DNA of 64,000 nt from Alphaproteobacteria bacterium MedPE-SWcel (GCA_001874255.1 MPDC01000009.1:30490-94489); one strand, 5' to 3'. Shown: positions 10,187-13,814, numbered from the stretch's first letter. Made by a program: numbers and translations. Notes: generated by a model from the letters alone, not told the origin.

Positions 10187-10219
10187 CTATTGGCCTCTGC
10201 CTCGGTGGCGGTTTGCCCT

Positions 10220-10248
10220 CAGATAAGGGGACTTGGCGTCAATTGCAA
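10220..10248 (-). promoter_or_regulatory. Putative sigma70 promoter of accD
   Basis: Minus strand TTGCAA-N17-TATCTG about 35 bp upstream of accD start. Confidence 0.4.
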
Positions 10249-10392
10249 TCAGGCCTTCTGCGTCAACCCTATCGACGCAATGTTGCGCTTTTCGAACGGG
10301 CCGGTGGCGATGCCCCGCAACGGGCCCTTTGTCTGGCTCCGAACCCGGACAGCGGCCGCGGGACGGCCCTCAGACACGCCTAGCACCCTCGA

Positions 10393-13300
10393 CTATGATC
10401 CCGGCGGGTCGGGGTCGGGGTCCGCGCGGCCAAGGGAACCTGTCTGCACCGCGCGGGCTTCCTGCAACGCCACAGCCGCACCCGAGAGATGGCCGGACAC
10501 CATCTGCAGCAATTGCAGCGCCACCGAAATGTCGCTTTCAATGACGGTTCGGTATTCTTCGGCGCCGATCCGCAGGAAAACGCAATCCTCTGCCGCGATC
10601 AGATCCAAGCGGCGCGGCTCGTCCACGATGACCGCCAGATCACCGATCAGCCGACCGGGGCCAACCATGTTCAGATGGCCCTGCTCTCCTGGAAAGCGGA
10701 GCTCCGCCTGACCCGACAGGCACAGATATACCGCATCGCCGGCCTCGCCCGCGCGAAAGACCGCCGCCCCGGTCGGAACGCGGACCCAGGACGCCGAAAA
10801 CGCCAACAATCGCCGGTGCCGGGCGTCCAGAGGCCGGAACAGCTCCACATCGCTGACGACCGCCAGCTTTCTGTCGAAATCGTCGCCCGCATTTTCGGCG
10901 GCGTTCCACTGTGGCCCGGCGCCGCTCCCGGTGCCGCTTGCCACCGCGTCAAGCGGGCCCTGCATGCAGCCGTCCAGACGGCCGTCCTTCAGCTCCAGAA
11001 AAAGATCGTAGCGATCCGGGTTTTCAAAATGGTTCTCGATGTGGATCATTGTGGTTTTCGGCAACAGGGTCTGTAGTCTCTTCCGGGTTTTCAGGCGACT
11101 GTCTGCATCGTGGCTCGCCAGCACCCGTTCGAGAATCAGCACATCCGGGCGTTTGATCGCCGCGCGCGTAAAGGCGGCGCGTTCGCGAAAGACCGGGGCC
11201 AGCAGCGCACCACCAAGGCCCGTCGGCAGATCATAGATCGTCAACGCAAGCCGGGCTTTCAGATCGTGATCCGCCATCACATCGGCGACCACATCCTCCA
11301 CGGCCTGCCCCTTGGCCCCGGCATGGGTGGCCACGCGGCCAAAGAGGGCGTTTTCAAGCACCGTCAGCTTGCGCGCGTACTCATCCGCCCGCAGGCGACG
11401 AAAGACACCGGCGCAGTCGGACAGCAACAGGTCACCGCGCCGGGCCCGCAGCTGCAGGATCCGGTTCTTGAAGGCCCGCGGCAGGCCGGGGCCGATCTGT
11501 TCCTCGGTCAGCAGGAACGGAAGCGTACAGAGCAGCGCGCGATCCTCCCGGCTTGGAATGTGCCCGGCTCCGTGGCGATCCGCGGCCTGCGCGATGCGCA
11601 GATAGAGATCCTCATCCAGGCCCAGCCGCTGAAACAGCGGATGTCCGGTCTCGCCCCTGCCGAAGGTTCGCTGCAATGTGTCCAGCAGCTCCAGGCTGAT
11701 GCTGCGTGTCTCCTCCTCCAGCCCTTCGGCACGCAAGACACGCTGAAACGGGCCGTCAGGATCCGTGAACAGGGCCGACGGGACCGGTTCCACCGCGAAG
11801 GCGAACATCATGTTCTCGGCCAGCGGCAAGGCCGGGTTGTAGCGGTCCGGCAGAAATCTGTAGACCACATCGCGCAGGCCCTGCTCCACCAGCCGCGCCT
11901 CGATCCGAGGACGCAAGGCGGTAATCTGGGCCTCCAGCGCCCTGTGGCGATCATGCAGCCGCGCATGCAATGTGCGATGAAAGAGCTGACCATCGACCCC
12001 CATCGCCTCGACGAGTTGAAACCACCAGTCGCGCAGATCCTGTTCGGAGCCCAATCCGGCGAGATCCGGATTGACCCAATCGGCATGGAGCGCATCCGGG
12101 CTGTTTCCCGCCCGCAGGGATTCGGCGCGCTCCGGTGCGTCCAGTTCCAGGTCAGAGGCGCGGGGACGGCTGCGCAGCGGCATCAGCACATTGTCGCCCA
12201 AAGAGCCGTCGAACAGATAGGGGGCGCTGAAGGCATAGCCGATCCGCGCGGCGATGACCCCCTGATGCAGCTCCTGCAGCGGTCGGCCCGCAATCACAAC
12301 CTCGCCGCGCGCGGGCAACACCTCCCGTGTCAGCACCTGCGCCAGCGCCTGACGTTCCGAGGCCGATGTGCTCTGGATCGCCACCTGCGCGCCCGCCGGA
12401 ATAGTGAGTGTCAGCCCATCGAGGATCGGCTTTCCCTCTGCGTCCTTGACCGTGACATCGCGCAACTCGATGGCGCCGCGCAGATGCGGCAGCTCTGGCG
12501 GCTCTCCTTCAAAAAGCCGTTCGTCGATCATGCCGGGAGGGGCAAATTTTTCTGCCATCACCTGCCAGCGCAGCGACATGTCCTGCACCTGATTGTAGTA
12601 GGTCAGCAGCTCTTTCCACGGCCCCGACAGATCCTTGTAGGCCGCCAGCGCCGCCACCAGCGCACCGACAGTGATCTCCCCCCGGATCGCCAGAACCCCG
12701 CCGACGGAATAGAAGAAAAACGGCGTCAGATGACCGATCAGGTTGTTCAGAAACTTCATGAAGAATTTCTTCGCAAAGATACGGCGGCGGATTTCGAACA
12801 AGCGGCCGAGGCGGGCCGAGACCTGCGCCAGGCGGTAGCGCCAGCCGCCATTGTTGCGCAGGTCGCTCAGCCCGGCTGCCGTTTCGCCGATCTCTGCTGC
12901 CAGTGCCCGAACCTCGGCGATACGATCCTTGTTCAGCAGGTTTATCTGACGTTGCATCATCGGAATGAGCCAGGCCTGCAGCGGAATCAGCGCAACGGAG
13001 GCAAGACCGAACCAGACACTCTGGACAAAGAGAAAGGACACGATCGTCAGCATTTGCCCGGCCTGAAAGACAGGCTGTGCCACCGCATCGCCCATCAATC
13101 CGCCCATAGGCTCTGATTCGGAGGTGATCATCGACACCATTTCGCCCTGACTGGTGGTGCGAAAGTAGCCCGACGGGAACCGCATCATCCGCGCGATCAT
13201 CTGATAGCGCAACCGGCGCAGCAGGCGCTCTGACATGATGCCTTTCACCGTGTTCAACCGCATCTTCATGATGCCGCTGGCCACGACCGCGCCAAGAAAG

Positions 13301-13515
13301 GCAAAGCACAACAGCAGCAGATAATCCTCGGAGGACAGCCACCGCCCCCACAGCTCGACCATCTCGGTCGGTGAGCCGATGGCATCGTTCACAATCCGTT
13401 TGGGCAGTTCCAGCGTGGCATAGAGAAACGGAAAAGTCAGCACGGTCAAAAGCAAGAGACCCAGCTGCTGCCGTTTTGAATACCGCCAGATGAAGGCAAA
13501 CAGGCTCGGCTCCAC
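10393..13515 (-). CDS. ABC exporter-like protein: TMD + degenerate, interrupted NBD + C-terminal cyclic-nucleotide-binding domain
   Basis: N-terminal ABC transmembrane domain; NBD-like segments split by a large insert; C-terminal VFRAGEAGDAVY...IGDLAVIVDEPR cNMP fold. Confidence 0.85.
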   Translation of the reverse strand: MEPSLFAFIWRYSKRQQLGLLLLTVLTFPFLYATLELPKRIVNDAIGSPTEMVELWGRWLSSEDYLLLLCFAFLGAVVASGIMKMRLNTVKGIMSERLLRRLRYQMIARMMRFPSGYFRTTSQGEMVSMITSESEPMGGLMGDAVAQPVFQAGQMLTIVSFLFVQSVWFGLASVALIPLQAWLIPMMQRQINLLNKDRIAEVRALAAEIGETAAGLSDLRNNGGWRYRLAQVSARLGRLFEIRRRIFAKKFFMKFLNNLIGHLTPFFFYSVGGVLAIRGEITVGALVAALAAYKDLSGPWKELLTYYNQVQDMSLRWQVMAEKFAPPGMIDERLFEGEPPELPHLRGAIELRDVTVKDAEGKPILDGLTLTIPAGAQVAIQSTSASERQALAQVLTREVLPARGEVVIAGRPLQELHQGVIAARIGYAFSAPYLFDGSLGDNVLMPLRSRPRASDLELDAPERAESLRAGNSPDALHADWVNPDLAGLGSEQDLRDWWFQLVEAMGVDGQLFHRTLHARLHDRHRALEAQITALRPRIEARLVEQGLRDVVYRFLPDRYNPALPLAENMMFAFAVEPVPSALFTDPDGPFQRVLRAEGLEEETRSISLELLDTLQRTFGRGETGHPLFQRLGLDEDLYLRIAQAADRHGAGHIPSREDRALLCTLPFLLTEEQIGPGLPRAFKNRILQLRARRGDLLLSDCAGVFRRLRADEYARKLTVLENALFGRVATHAGAKGQAVEDVVADVMADHDLKARLALTIYDLPTGLGGALLAPVFRERAAFTRAAIKRPDVLILERVLASHDADSRLKTRKRLQTLLPKTTMIHIENHFENPDRYDLFLELKDGRLDGCMQGPLDAVASGTGSGAGPQWNAAENAGDDFDRKLAVVSDVELFRPLDARHRRLLAFSASWVRVPTGAAVFRAGEAGDAVYLCLSGQAELRFPGEQGHLNMVGPGRLIGDLAVIVDEPRRLDLIAAEDCVFLRIGAEEYRTVIESDISVALQLLQMVSGHLSGAAVALQEARAVQTGSLGRADPDPDPPGS

Positions 13516-13814
13516 GCCTTGTCCTTTCAGTCAGTCAGGGACGCCGTGGGGCGCGGGGCATTTGCTTCAGATGACACAATCCCGCGTTCAAAGGAAACTG
13601 AAACTCCGGGCATCGGGCATCGGACACAGGGTCAGGGCAGTGTCACGTGAAGGGGCGTCAGGTAAGCGTGTTCTCGCCTCAATTCAAGGGATCGTCGGCC
13701 AGTCTCGGATAGGCCTTGTCCCATTTCAAGGCTGCGTTTACACCTTTTGGGTAAGCAAAACAGGGCGTCCGACCTCCGTTGGGACAATATCGGTCGCCGG
13801 CCACGAGGACAGAT

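What the first reader, a model, noticed from the sequence alone, without database searches (positions are those of the whole stretch)
10393..13515. ABC exporter whose ATPase looks dead, is split by a large insert, and is fused to a cNMP-binding domain
Where Walker A (GxxGxGKS/T) should be, the protein reads AIQSTSASERQ. The signature region reads LGGALLAPVF instead of LSGGQ, and Walker B reads VLILER instead of hhhhDE. Roughly 350 residues separate the Q-loop region (IGYAFSAPYLF) from the signature region. The C-terminal domain keeps the phosphate-binding cassette pattern (G-D-L-A...P-R). This suggests a pseudo-ATPase transporter or sensor gated by a cyclic nucleotide rather than by ATP hydrolysis. 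No second ABC subunit is encoded next to it.
Basis: partly seen in the sequence, partly recalled or inferred. Interest (0 to 1): 0.68.

Follow-up and report, generated by a model that had tools for sequence, protein, structure and literature searches.

The report
ATP-dead ABC exporter look-alike with cNMP sensor
This is a real, strongly conserved membrane protein built like an ABC exporter, but every ATP-handling motif has been replaced by other conserved residues, part of its ATPase domain has been triplicated, and a cyclic-nucleotide sensor is fused on; its relatives belong to a poorly understood envelope-sugar ("PPP/red") pathway of Alphaproteobacteria.

Summary
ORF 10393-13515 (-) encodes a 1040-aa protein with a 6-TM ABC-exporter membrane domain, an NBD-like domain and a C-terminal cNMP-binding fold.

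- **Dead motifs.** Walker A, Q-loop, signature, Walker B-Glu and H-loop are all non-canonical. The replacement residues are themselves near-invariant in 89 orthologues (E387-R388, S430, GLGG..E778-R779, E827). This is remodelling, not decay.
- **The "insert".** It is an internal triplication of the NBD helical-subdomain unit (hhalign E 1e-14, 2e-6 and 1e-5; column-shuffled controls score far lower). Folded alone it has no look-alike in the PDB.
- **A wider superfamily.** There are at least 524 clusters at 50% identity. Only 29 of the 121 clusters aligned keep the P-loop Lys, and none has the H-loop His at its aligned position.
- **Split forms.** Relatives without the sensor domain have a separate cNMP-binding gene next door (4 of 4 examined).
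- **Pathway.** Members sit beside a GT-GT4-GT4-histidine-phosphatase-GT cassette, which corresponds to S. meliloti redA/redB of the "PPP" cluster. There the family member SMb21269, also lacking the P-loop Lys, is needed for phazolicin tolerance in published Tn-seq.
- **This genome.** It carries that cassette plus a 50%-identical, equally dead paralogue 15 kb from it. The query is the unlinked copy.

Most likely it is an ATP-independent, cNMP-responsive exporter or regulator for that glycan. Ligand binding and transport are untested.

The parts
10393..13515 (-). Whole gene: 1040-aa pseudo-ABC exporter fused to a CNB domain ('paralogue A')
   Evidence: ORF and translation. 1792 homologues, all about 1030-1075 aa.
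12526..13515 (-). Transmembrane domain, res 1-330. Six hydrophobic segments: 17-35, 65-83, 149-167, 166-184, 259-277, 274-292
   Evidence: PF00664, E 5e-19. Hydropathy. Most conserved region, 80% mean pairwise identity among orthologues. Foldseek matches TmrAB, TM287/288, Pgp and BmrCD.
12181..12483 (-). N-terminal half of the NBD-like domain (res 345-445), with the degenerate P-loop and Q-loop
   Evidence: ABC_tran profile positions 1-80 only, 15.8 bits. TM288 alignment. AF2 pLDDT about 90.
12346..12381 (-). Former Walker A, res 379-390: A-I-Q-S-T-S-A-S-E-R-Q-A in place of (A-L-V-)GxxGxGK[ST]. E387 is kept in 88/89 and R388 in 89/89 orthologues
11956..12243 (-). Repeat R1 of the helical-subdomain unit (res ~425-520): IGYAFSAPYLFDGSLGDNVLMPL ... 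WWFQLVEAMGVDGQLF. The Q-loop Gln is replaced by S430
   Evidence: hhalign R1 region vs R3: probability 89.9, E 1.7e-6, score 36.1 against a shuffled maximum of 15.7.
11404..12180 (-). The 'insert' (res 446-704): all-helical, conserved in length (about 300-335 aa between res 447 and 760) across the superfamily
   Evidence: length. AF2 of res 445-716 alone: pLDDT 87.8. Foldseek against the PDB: best E 1.1. Pfam and PDB sequence searches find nothing.
11686..11865 (-). Repeat R2 (res ~551-610): VYRFLPDRYNPALPLAENMMFAFAV ... FQRVLRAEGLEEETRSI
   Evidence: hhalign R2 region vs R3: probability 98.3, E 1.3e-14, score 79.5 against a shuffled maximum of 15.6.
11158..11403 (-). Repeat R3 plus the degenerate signature (res 705-786): FRRLRADEYARKLTVLENALFGRV ... 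DLPTGLGGALLAPVFRERAAFTR
   Evidence: NCBIfam PhnT profile 94-197 matches res 716-827. G766, G768, G769, E778 and R779 are kept in 89/89 orthologues.
11107..11151 (-). Former Walker B and D-loop (res 789-803): RPDVLILERVLASHD. Position 796 is D in 83/89 (E here). Position 797 is mostly K, R, N or Q; E is not among its four commonest residues
11026..11055 (-). Former H-loop (res 821-830): TTMIHIENHF. E827, invariant in 89/89, sits at the aligned His position
10876..10965 (-). Variable Gly/Ala-rich linker (res 851-880)
   Evidence: 26% identity among orthologues. pLDDT below 50.
10486..10875 (-). Cyclic-nucleotide-binding-fold domain (res 881-1010)
   Evidence: PF00027, E 1e-13. Best PDB sequence matches are PKA-R and PKG CNB domains, E 2e-14. 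27% identical (E 2e-16) to the stand-alone cNMP protein next to S. meliloti SMb21269.
10591..10659 (-). Phosphate-binding cassette (res 953-975): PGRLIGDLAVIVDEPRRLDLIAA. G958 88/89, D959 87/89, R968 89/89, D971 85/89

Best explanation
The gene encodes a functional inner-membrane protein of a large superfamily derived from type-I (MsbA/TmrAB-like) ABC exporters. No Pfam or NCBIfam model describes this superfamily.

**Architecture (shown).** It has a 6-TM exporter domain and an NBD-like domain whose helical-subdomain unit (strand, then LF..TVxENLLFG, then a helix) has been triplicated. The extra copies are the 'insert'. A C-terminal CNB-fold domain follows.

**ATP site (shown by sequence; loss of function inferred).** In this protein's clade every ATP-contacting motif has been swapped for other, themselves invariant, residues. 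ATP binding and hydrolysis are therefore very unlikely. The domain is kept under purifying selection as a structural or transducing module.

**Mechanism (inferred).**
- It acts as a dimer, either with itself or with the 50%-identical, equally ATP-dead paralogue B encoded on contig C52.
- Binding of a cyclic nucleotide to the CNB domain changes how the pseudo-NBDs pack. The genome has five class-III cyclases.
- That change alters the conformation of the membrane domains.

**Pathway (shown by association; role inferred).**
- The superfamily's partner is the conserved GT-GT4-GT4-histidine phosphatase-GT(-deacetylase-methyltransferase) cassette, orthologous to S. meliloti redA/redB of the 'PPP' envelope-polysaccharide cluster.
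- The cluster's own member of this superfamily, SMb21269, has a neighbouring cNMP-binding gene and is genetically required for the same phenotype as the glycosyltransferases.
- The query is therefore most likely a second-messenger-controlled, ATP-independent exporter, flippase or gate for that glycoconjugate, or a regulator of it.
For: **Architecture and motif states.**

**Purifying selection.** Mean identity among 89 orthologues is 80% in the TMD, 69% in the NBD N-half and 68% in R3 plus signature and Walker B. The substitute residues E387, R388, E778, R779 and E827 are kept in 88-89 of 89.

**Triplication.** hhalign E 1.3e-14, 1.7e-6 and 1e-5 (scores 79.5, 36.1, 35.2). The highest score in 40 column shuffles was 15.7.

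**Fold.** AF2 gives mean pLDDT 77.5, with about 85-95 over res 340-760. Foldseek matches TmrAB, TM287/288, Pgp and BmrCD.

**Clade-wide loss of the P-loop.** On a tree built from TMD columns only, the query lies in a supported clade of 48 representatives, all without a P-loop Lys.

**State of the whole superfamily.**
- GK is present in 29 of 121 representatives.
- GK together with Walker B D-E occurs in 2.
- No representative has His at the H-loop column.

**Split and fused forms.** Four of four sensor-less relatives examined have a separate 149-164 aa cNMP-binding gene immediately downstream: L082, L084, L085 and S. meliloti.

**Link to the cassette.**
- The cassette is adjacent in L082, L084, L086 and L087.
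- The whole cassette lies in this genome at C52:1355-6630, 15 kb from paralogue B.
- All 30 genomes of the same bacterial family with a superfamily member have a redA-type GT, against 8 of 121 genomes without one (Fisher 1e-24).

**Experimental anchor.**
- The GT is 45% identical to SMb21264 (redA) at its annotated position.
- The query aligns colinearly with SMb21269 over res 125-812, 30% identity, E 2e-95.
- Published Tn-seq log2FC in phazolicin is -4.0 to -5.4 for SMb21269, like redA and redB (PMC10128002 Data Set S1).
- SMb21269 itself has no P-loop Lys (GGTSGGGE) and no Walker B D-E.

**Cyclases.** Five class-III cyclase genes are present in the genome.
Against: - No binding, ATPase or transport data exist for this protein or its clade.
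- The PBC departs from the canonical pattern: Asp replaces the ribose-binding Glu, and R-x-L-D replaces R-[ST]-A. cNMP binding is therefore uncertain.
- The query copy is not linked to the cassette. It sits between ctpA/DUF6478 and accD-folC, a backbone region (DUF6478 is in 124 of 151 family genomes). Its tie to the glycan pathway rests on homology, on strict genomic co-occurrence and on paralogue B.
- The co-occurrence test is not corrected for phylogeny.
- Dimerisation with paralogue B is inferred only from co-occurrence.
- How a glycan would be moved without ATP is unexplained.
- The product of the PPP/red cluster is chemically unknown.
- The S. meliloti Tn-seq phenotype shows a requirement, not export.
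Confidence: 0.55

Rival explanations
1. It does not move anything. It is a membrane-anchored cNMP receptor or scaffold. The ABC-exporter fold and the triplicated helical subdomain serve as a docking and allosteric platform that switches the glycosyltransferases, paralogue B or another partner on or off. This would be analogous to second-messenger receptors such as PelD or Alg44 in polysaccharide systems.
For: - All energy-coupling motifs are gone in both paralogues.
- Some relatives add a GGDEF domain after the CNB domain, a signalling-type architecture.
- The extra helical-subdomain copies are surface-rich helical modules with no known fold match.
- The query is a second, unlinked copy, as a regulator might be.
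Against: - The membrane domain is the most conserved part: 80% identity among orthologues, with many residues invariant across 22 diverse superfamily members. That fits a conserved substrate path or conformational cycle better than a mere anchor.
- No interaction data exist.
Confidence: 0.25
2. It is still an ATP-driven exporter. Either ATP is bound by a non-canonical pocket, or the protein pairs with a canonical ABC half-transporter that supplies one working site, as in heterodimers with one degenerate site.
For: - Heterodimeric exporters with one degenerate site are well known (TM287/288, TmrAB and BmrCD are the best structural matches).
- About a quarter of the superfamily keeps a P-loop Lys.
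Against: - In this clade Walker A has lost all three Gly and has Lys replaced by Arg.
- The Q-loop Gln, the signature Ser/Gln, the catalytic Glu and the H-loop His are all replaced, in 89 of 89 orthologues.
- The only close paralogue is equally degenerate.
- Other ABC exporters in the genome are only 20-31% identical, over partial lengths.
- No ABC gene is adjacent.
Confidence: 0.08
3. The C-terminal domain has the CNB fold but does not bind cAMP or cGMP. It binds another small molecule, or serves only as a dimerisation or latch module.
For: - The PBC Glu is Asp in 87 of 89 orthologues, and the [ST]-A after the Arg is replaced by x-[LM]-D.
- Many bacterial CNB-fold domains bind other ligands (general knowledge of the CRP/FNR superfamily).
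Against: - The PBC Gly and the phosphate-binding Arg are invariant.
- Paralogue B and more distant relatives keep the canonical GEL..PR[ST]A.
- The genome has five class-III cyclases.
Confidence: 0.3
4. It is a decaying relic of an ABC transporter with no function.
For: All catalytic motifs are non-canonical.
Against: - The reading frame is intact in every genome examined.
- Identity across genera is 57-85%.
- The substitute residues are invariant.
- The TMD is 80% conserved.
- A P-loop-Lys-less relative is genetically required in S. meliloti.
Confidence: 0.02

Closest known systems
S. meliloti SMb21269 plus the adjacent cNMP-binding gene, in the red/PPP (phazolicin-protecting polysaccharide) cluster smb21252-smb21271 on pSymB (PMC10128002)
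   Same: - Same superfamily: colinear alignment over res 125-812, including all three repeats, 30% identity, E 2e-95.
- The P-loop Lys and Walker B D-E are also absent.
- A cNMP-binding partner is present, homologous to the query's CNB domain.
- The same GT cassette (redA/redB orthologues) is present in this genome.
   Different: - In S. meliloti the sensor is a separate protein with a canonical PBC, and the signature (..LTSGQRQK..) is still recognisable.
- The query is a fused, unlinked second paralogue with the signature, Q-loop and H-loop also replaced.
- Only Tn-seq and MIC phenotypes are known there. Neither the product nor the mechanism has been defined.
Heterodimeric type-I/IV ABC exporters with one degenerate ATP site (TM287/288, TmrAB, BmrCD)
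   Same: Best sequence and structure matches for the TMD and NBD core. They share the concept of a non-catalytic nucleotide site.
   Different: Those keep one fully canonical site and bind ATP at both. Here every site would be degenerate, even in an A/B heterodimer. The helical subdomain is triplicated and a CNB domain is fused.
CFTR and SUR1/2 (ABC proteins that act as a gated channel or as a regulator rather than a pump)
   Same: The ABC-exporter fold is used for gating or regulation, and control comes from a cyclic-nucleotide pathway (indirectly, through PKA, in CFTR).
   Different: CFTR and SUR still bind ATP, and CFTR hydrolyses it at one site. Their regulation is by phosphorylation or by a partner channel, not by a fused CNB domain. 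They are not specifically related beyond the fold.
Cyanobacterial cNMP-domain ABC exporters (HetC, NHLM_micro_ABC2/TIGR03797 type)
   Same: An ABC exporter carrying a cNMP-binding-type domain. TIGR03797 is a weak partial hit. HetC paper: PMC10986499.
   Different: There the CNB-type domain is N-terminal, the NBD is canonical and uninterrupted, and the substrates are peptides.
Second-messenger receptors of polysaccharide secretion systems (PelD, Alg44, BcsA-PilZ)
   Same: The functional idea is shared: a membrane protein senses a nucleotide messenger and licenses synthesis or export of an envelope glycan. Some relatives even carry a GGDEF domain.
   Different: The folds are unrelated, and those receptors sense c-di-GMP rather than cNMP. 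No evidence here goes beyond gene association.

Membership tests
ABC transporter, type-I exporter (PF00664 + PF00005) | Six-helix ABC_membrane domain | tested here: met
   PF00664 E 5e-19, 69 bits against a cut-off of 28. Six hydrophobic segments. Foldseek matches exporters.
ABC transporter, type-I exporter (PF00664 + PF00005) | ABC_tran domain scoring above the Pfam gathering threshold | tested here: not met
   15.8 bits against 25, and only profile positions 1-80 of 137.
ABC transporter, type-I exporter (PF00664 + PF00005) | Walker A GxxGxGK[ST] | tested here: not met
   S-T-S-A-S-E-R-Q aligned to G-P-T-G-S-G-K-T of TM288. The same state in 89 of 89 orthologues.
ABC transporter, type-I exporter (PF00664 + PF00005) | Signature LSGGQ and Q-loop Gln | tested here: not met
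   G-L-G-G plus a 4-5 residue insertion, then E-R in place of Q-R. The Q-loop Gln is Ser in 86 of 89.
ABC transporter, type-I exporter (PF00664 + PF00005) | Walker B hhhhD-E and H-loop His | tested here: not met
   VLILE-R in the query and hhhhD-[KRNQ] in most orthologues. E827 sits at the His column in 89 of 89.
ABC transporter, type-I exporter (PF00664 + PF00005) | ATP binding and hydrolysis | not testable with these tools
   Needs purified protein.
cNMP_binding (PF00027) / CNB fold | Domain match above the curated threshold, and similarity to solved CNB domains | tested here: met
   51.6 bits against 27.5. PKA-R and PKG CNB domains, E 2e-14.
cNMP_binding (PF00027) / CNB fold | Canonical phosphate-binding cassette G-E-L-A-L...P-R-[ST/A]-A | tested here: inconclusive
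   Gly and Arg are invariant. Glu is Asp in 87 of 89, and R-x-[LM]-D replaces R-[ST]-A.
cNMP_binding (PF00027) / CNB fold | Binds cAMP or cGMP | not testable with these tools
   Needs ITC, DRaCALA or a structure.
red/PPP-cluster pseudo-ABC protein (SMb21269 type) | Colinear homology including the triplicated helical subdomain | tested here: met
   30% identity over res 125-812, E 2e-95. The distance between Q-loop and signature is kept at about 300-335 aa across 121 representatives.
red/PPP-cluster pseudo-ABC protein (SMb21269 type) | Dedicated cNMP-binding partner, fused or adjacent | tested here: met
   Fused in the query. Adjacent gene in L082, L084, L085 and pSymB.
red/PPP-cluster pseudo-ABC protein (SMb21269 type) | Located in or beside the redA-redB glycosyltransferase cassette | tested here: not met
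   The query is on contig C54 between DUF6478 and accD. The cassette is on C52:1355-6630. Paralogue B, not the query, lies 15 kb from it.
red/PPP-cluster pseudo-ABC protein (SMb21269 type) | Genome also carries the cassette | tested here: met
   30 of 30 genomes with a superfamily member have a redA-type GT, against 8 of 121 without.

The most novel reading that the evidence does not exclude
This clade would be a class of ABC-fold membrane machines that no longer use ATP at all.

- The ATP 'glue' between the two nucleotide-binding domains has been replaced by conserved Glu/Arg pairs at the former P-loop (E387-R388), signature (E778-R779) and H-loop (E827) positions.
- Closure and opening of the dimer are driven instead by cyclic-nucleotide binding to the fused CNB domains.
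- The triplicated helical subdomain is a docking platform for the red/PPP glycosyltransferases.
- The A/B paralogue pair forms a heterodimeric, second-messenger-gated conduit for an envelope glycan.
Probability: 0.2. Interest if true: 0.85.

Novelty: new variant of a known kind. Interest (0 to 1): 0.63.

Why it matters
ABC exporters are defined by ATP-driven alternating access. This is a large, conserved family in which all ATP-site motifs are replaced by new conserved residues. One P-loop-Lys-less member, S. meliloti SMb21269, is nevertheless genetically required. If confirmed, the family would show that the exporter fold can be re-powered or re-purposed by a second messenger.

It would also give a handle on the still uncharacterised PPP/red envelope glycan. 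That glycan affects antimicrobial-peptide tolerance and symbiosis in rhizobia, and the cassette is present in roughly a fifth of the sampled genera of the query's bacterial family (30 of 151 carry both a superfamily member and the redA-type GT).

The triplicated helical subdomain is, as far as I could find, an undescribed elaboration of the NBD.

Tried and rejected
- **Functional linkage to the immediate neighbours (lipoprotein, DUF6478, orf125, accD, folC): rejected.** The order is conserved in about 60 of 80 Roseobacter-group loci but absent from the roughly 50%-identical Granulosicoccus copies. DUF6478 is in 124 of 151 family genomes against 30 of 151 for the pseudo-ABC. The synteny reflects the vertical chromosome backbone.
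- **Identity of the insert as a known domain: nothing found.** Pfam found nothing (E at most 10) and PDB phmmer found nothing. Foldseek of the insert-only model gave a best E of 1.1.
- **A named family for the superfamily: none.** No NCBIfam model reaches its cut-off, even for members that keep Walker A.
- **Literature on the protein family.** Three searches found nothing. Two further searches on redA/redB and on the Agrobacterium pyocyanin screen added nothing. The only anchor is the S. meliloti Tn-seq paper.
- **Pseudogene reading: rejected** on conservation.
- **Context of two other relatives.** L083 and the Granulosicoccus locus L074 showed no cassette nearby, so linkage is frequent but not universal.
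- **Dimer modelling (A-A, A-B).** Not possible with the single-chain tool.


Full report
**1. Observation**

The ORF at 10393-13515 (-) is real: 1040 aa, GTG start preceded by AGGA. Pfam finds ABC_membrane (res 65-291, E 5e-19) and cNMP_binding (911-994, E 1e-13). ABC_tran is sub-threshold (15.8 bits against 25) and covers only profile positions 1-80. NCBIfam models of MsbA-type exporters stop matching near res 445-460, and a PhnT ATPase model picks up again at 716-827.

phmmer against the PDB aligns TM288 residues 83-461 to query 74-458, and 487-567 to query 767-847. It places VAIQSTSASERQA opposite VALVGPTGSGKTT. The Q-loop-to-signature distance is about 340 residues instead of about 60. No ABC gene is adjacent; the neighbours are accD, folC, DUF6478 and an Ada-like gene.

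**2. The protein is conserved, and its 'dead' motifs are conserved too**

The word-indexed search found 1792 homologues. The best 120 are 57-85% identical, all about 1020-1100 aa, from Tritonibacter, Phaeobacter, Ruegeria and other Roseobacter-group genera. They are annotated only as 'ABC transporter transmembrane domain-containing protein' or 'cyclic nucleotide-binding domain-containing protein'.

Mean pairwise identity among 89 orthologues, by region:

| Region | Identity |
|---|---|
| TMD (1-330) | 80% |
| NBD N-half (345-445) | 69% |
| Two extra repeat regions | 54% and 51% |
| R3 + signature + Walker B | 68% |
| Linker | 26% |
| CNB domain | 62% |

The residues that replace the catalytic ones are near-invariant:

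| Position | State in 89 orthologues |
|---|---|
| E387 / R388 (P-loop Gly/Lys positions) | 88/89 and 89/89 |
| S430 (Q-loop Gln) | 86/89 |
| G766, G768, G769 ... E778, R779 (signature) | 89/89 |
| 796 (Walker B Asp) | D in 83/89, E in the query |
| 797 (catalytic Glu position) | mostly K, R, N or Q; E not among the four commonest |
| E827 (H-loop His) | 89/89 |

This is remodelling under selection, not decay.

**3. The 'insert' is a triplicated piece of the NBD**

Three segments share the pattern strand - (F/Y)xP..(S/T)(V/L)xEN(L/M)(L/M)F(G/A) - helix '..L...GL':
- R1, about res 425-520.
- R2, about res 551-610.
- R3, about res 705-767, which runs into the signature.

Profile-profile comparison of sub-alignments from 126 diverse family members gave the following:

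| Pair | Probability | E-value | Score | Highest score in 40 column shuffles |
|---|---|---|---|---|
| R2 region vs R3 region | 98.3% | 1.3e-14 | 79.5 | 15.6 |
| R1 region vs R3 region | 89.9% | 1.7e-6 | 36.1 | 15.7 |
| R1 region vs R2 region | 82.6% | 1e-5 | 35.2 | 12.9 |

AlphaFold2 models the whole protein with mean pLDDT 77.5, and about 85-95 across res 340-760. Residues 445-716 folded alone give pLDDT 87.8, all-helical. The full model matches TmrAB, TM287/288, P-glycoprotein and BmrCD. The insert alone matches nothing in the PDB (best E 1.1) and nothing by sequence.

**4. A wider superfamily that has been losing its ATP site**

An exhaustive search of 1.8 billion representatives found 524 clusters at E below 1e-30. 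They fall into forms of about 1000-1080 aa with the CNB domain and forms of about 840-900 aa without it. All keep the 300-335 aa spacing between Q-loop and signature.

Of the 121 representatives retained from the 126 aligned (five with garbled C-termini dropped):
- 29 keep a P-loop 'GK'.
- 6 keep the strict GxxGxGK[ST].
- 2 combine GK with Walker B D-E, and 13 have N-E.
- None has His at the H-loop column.

On a tree built from TMD columns only, the query lies in a supported clade of 48 representatives, all without the Lys. Retention elsewhere is patchy, requiring at least 14 changes on the tree. Distant CNB-bearing members have a canonical PBC (GELALL..PR[ST]AT). The query's orthologues have G-D-L-[AS]-[VI]-I...P-R-x-[LM]-D. 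Some relatives add a GGDEF domain after the CNB domain. No NCBIfam model reaches its cut-off for any form.

**5. A paralogue**

The same genome encodes a second full-length copy at C52:20116-23245. It is 50% identical over res 1-1014 (P0270) and equally degenerate: IAAPSEEDRRA, VAVGGQGLGASFAEP, ILILEG, LIFLEPSF. Its PBC keeps the Glu (GELGLIRKEPRALS).

In 151 genomes, one per genus of the same bacterial family, 30 have a superfamily member. Of about 17 with the query type (at least 53% identity), about 14 also have the B type. On the tree, A and B are sister groups. A heterodimer is possible, but it would still have no canonical ATP site.

**6. Pathway context**

The query's own neighbourhood is uninformative. 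The gene order is conserved only within the Roseobacter group, and DUF6478 is present in 124 of 151 family genomes.

Earlier notes of this scan on GGDEF-bearing relatives prompted me to look at distant members. This gave four results.

- **Split sensors.** Three of three sensor-less relatives have a separate 149-164 aa cNMP-binding gene immediately downstream.
- **Adjacent cassette.** L082, L084, L086 and L087 lie beside a cassette of Glyco_tran_28_C, GT4, GT4, His_Phos_1 and Glyco_tran_28_C. Depending on the locus it comes with a Methyltransf_17 gene and an Opp/Dpp-type importer.
- **This genome.** tblastn finds the whole cassette at C52:1355-6630, the importer at C52:10833-16777 and two Methyltransf_17 genes. 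All lie 3-15 kb from paralogue B. The same layout is annotated on the Ruegeria sp. TM1040 megaplasmid, where a polysaccharide deacetylase and a SAM methyltransferase end the operon.
- **Co-occurrence.** The redA-type GT is present in 30 of 30 genomes that have a superfamily member and in 8 of 121 that do not (Fisher 1e-24, not corrected for phylogeny). B-type copies lie 15-34 kb from it in seven of the ten genomes tabulated (99 kb in one, a different contig in two). More distant members lie 4-7 kb away in three of four genomes checked. A-type copies are unlinked.

**7. Experimental anchor**

The cassette's first GT is 45% identical to the ORF at pSymB 837165-838310 of S. meliloti 1021. That position is SMb21264 (redA) in Data Set S1 of PMC10128002, followed by SMb21265 (redB, GT4) and SMb21266.

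Just downstream lies SMb21269, annotated 'PPP-biosynthesis; ABC exporter' at 842345-844435. It is a member of this superfamily: E 2e-104 against paralogue B, and 30% identity, E 2e-95 and colinear over res 125-812 against the query. Next come a separate cNMP-binding ORF (27% identical to the query's CNB domain, E 2e-16) and a methyltransferase, SMb21271.

The paper reports that genes between smb21252 and smb21271 are needed for an uncharacterised surface polysaccharide, 'PPP'. It also reports that insertions strongly reduce fitness in phazolicin. In its data set SMb21269 scores -4.77, -5.38 and -4.03, like redA (-4.8) and redB (-5.2).

SMb21269 itself has no P-loop Lys (GGTSGGGE) and has Walker B FYVFNQ. 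A member with a defective ATP site is therefore functionally required in vivo.

**8. Interpretation**

*Shown:*
- The architecture, the clade-wide replacement of ATP motifs by conserved residues, and the internal triplication.
- The CNB fold with its Gly and Arg retained.
- The paralogue, and the split and fused relationships with cNMP-binding proteins.
- Genomic association of the superfamily with the red/PPP cassette.

*Inferred:*
- Loss of ATP binding and hydrolysis.
- cNMP binding. The genome has five class-III cyclases.
- Dimerisation, possibly with paralogue B.
- A role as an ATP-independent, messenger-controlled exporter, gate or regulator for the cluster's glycoconjugate.

The query's own tie to the pathway is weaker than that of paralogue B, because the query is unlinked. 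The main rival is that it is purely a receptor or scaffold. A cryptic ATPase and a relic are unlikely.

**9. Novelty**

The family is visible in databases and one member carries a Tn-seq phenotype. I found no description of the pseudo-ATPase state, the triplicated helical subdomain, the obligatory cNMP partner or the A/B paralogy. I class it as a new variant of a known kind. The same superfamily has been flagged repeatedly elsewhere in this scan. That supports its reality but is not independent evidence for the mechanism.

Noticed in passing
window 10187-10392; compare L003:9216-10094: In Arenibacterium sp. and most other Roseobacter-group loci about 1 kb separates the pseudo-ABC gene from accD. 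In L003 that gap holds a 292-aa CPBP/CAAX-type intramembrane protease-like ORF (EEILFRGYL..FGFGHY..HFVNN). In this window the gap is only about 200 bp and the gene is absent.
   Followed up: partly
L091:1062-1775 vs L091:1525-3813 (S. meliloti 1021 pSymB 841684-844435): The N-terminal TMD part of SMb21269 (MEPRLSRYIWTHTRKQQL...) reads in a different frame from the rest of the gene in the 1021 record. The annotated CDS starts later, at 842345. This is either a real frameshift or a sequencing error. The Tn-seq phenotype shows that the locus matters.
   Followed up: no
L072, L074, L075, L077, L079, L081: Granulosicoccus and Granulosicoccaceae (Gammaproteobacteria) carry full-length copies 48-50% identical to the query, in unrelated gene contexts (metH, FKBP, MFS). 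This suggests horizontal transfer among marine bacteria.
   Followed up: partly
G000 contig C52 (L088:7006-9390 +); TM1040_RS03910 in L089: A large ORF of 794 aa here sits between the importer/CoA-transferase genes and the glycosyltransferase cassette. In TM1040 the equivalent gene is annotated as a mechanosensitive (MscS-family) channel. I did not scan the ORF in this genome against Pfam.
   Followed up: no
G000 contig C52: L088:95-670 (-) and L088:17137-17628 (+): Two Methyltransf_17 (PF12692) paralogues flank the glycan/importer region. The same family sits next to the pseudo-ABC and cNMP genes in L082.
   Followed up: partly
window 13643-13650: A perfect 8-bp palindrome, TCACGTGA, lies about 130 nt upstream of the GTG start, in the divergent intergenic region shared with the lipoprotein/DUF6478 genes. 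It could be a regulator site.
   Followed up: no
P0250 (representative, 1195 aa): One superfamily member carries a TctC-like (PF03401) solute-receptor domain at its C-terminus instead of a CNB domain.
   Followed up: no
L084:3846-5102 (-): In one sensor-less relative a class-III nucleotide cyclase gene lies 3 kb from the pseudo-ABC and cNMP-binding gene pair, alongside type-IV-pilin-like (N_methyl) genes.
   Followed up: no
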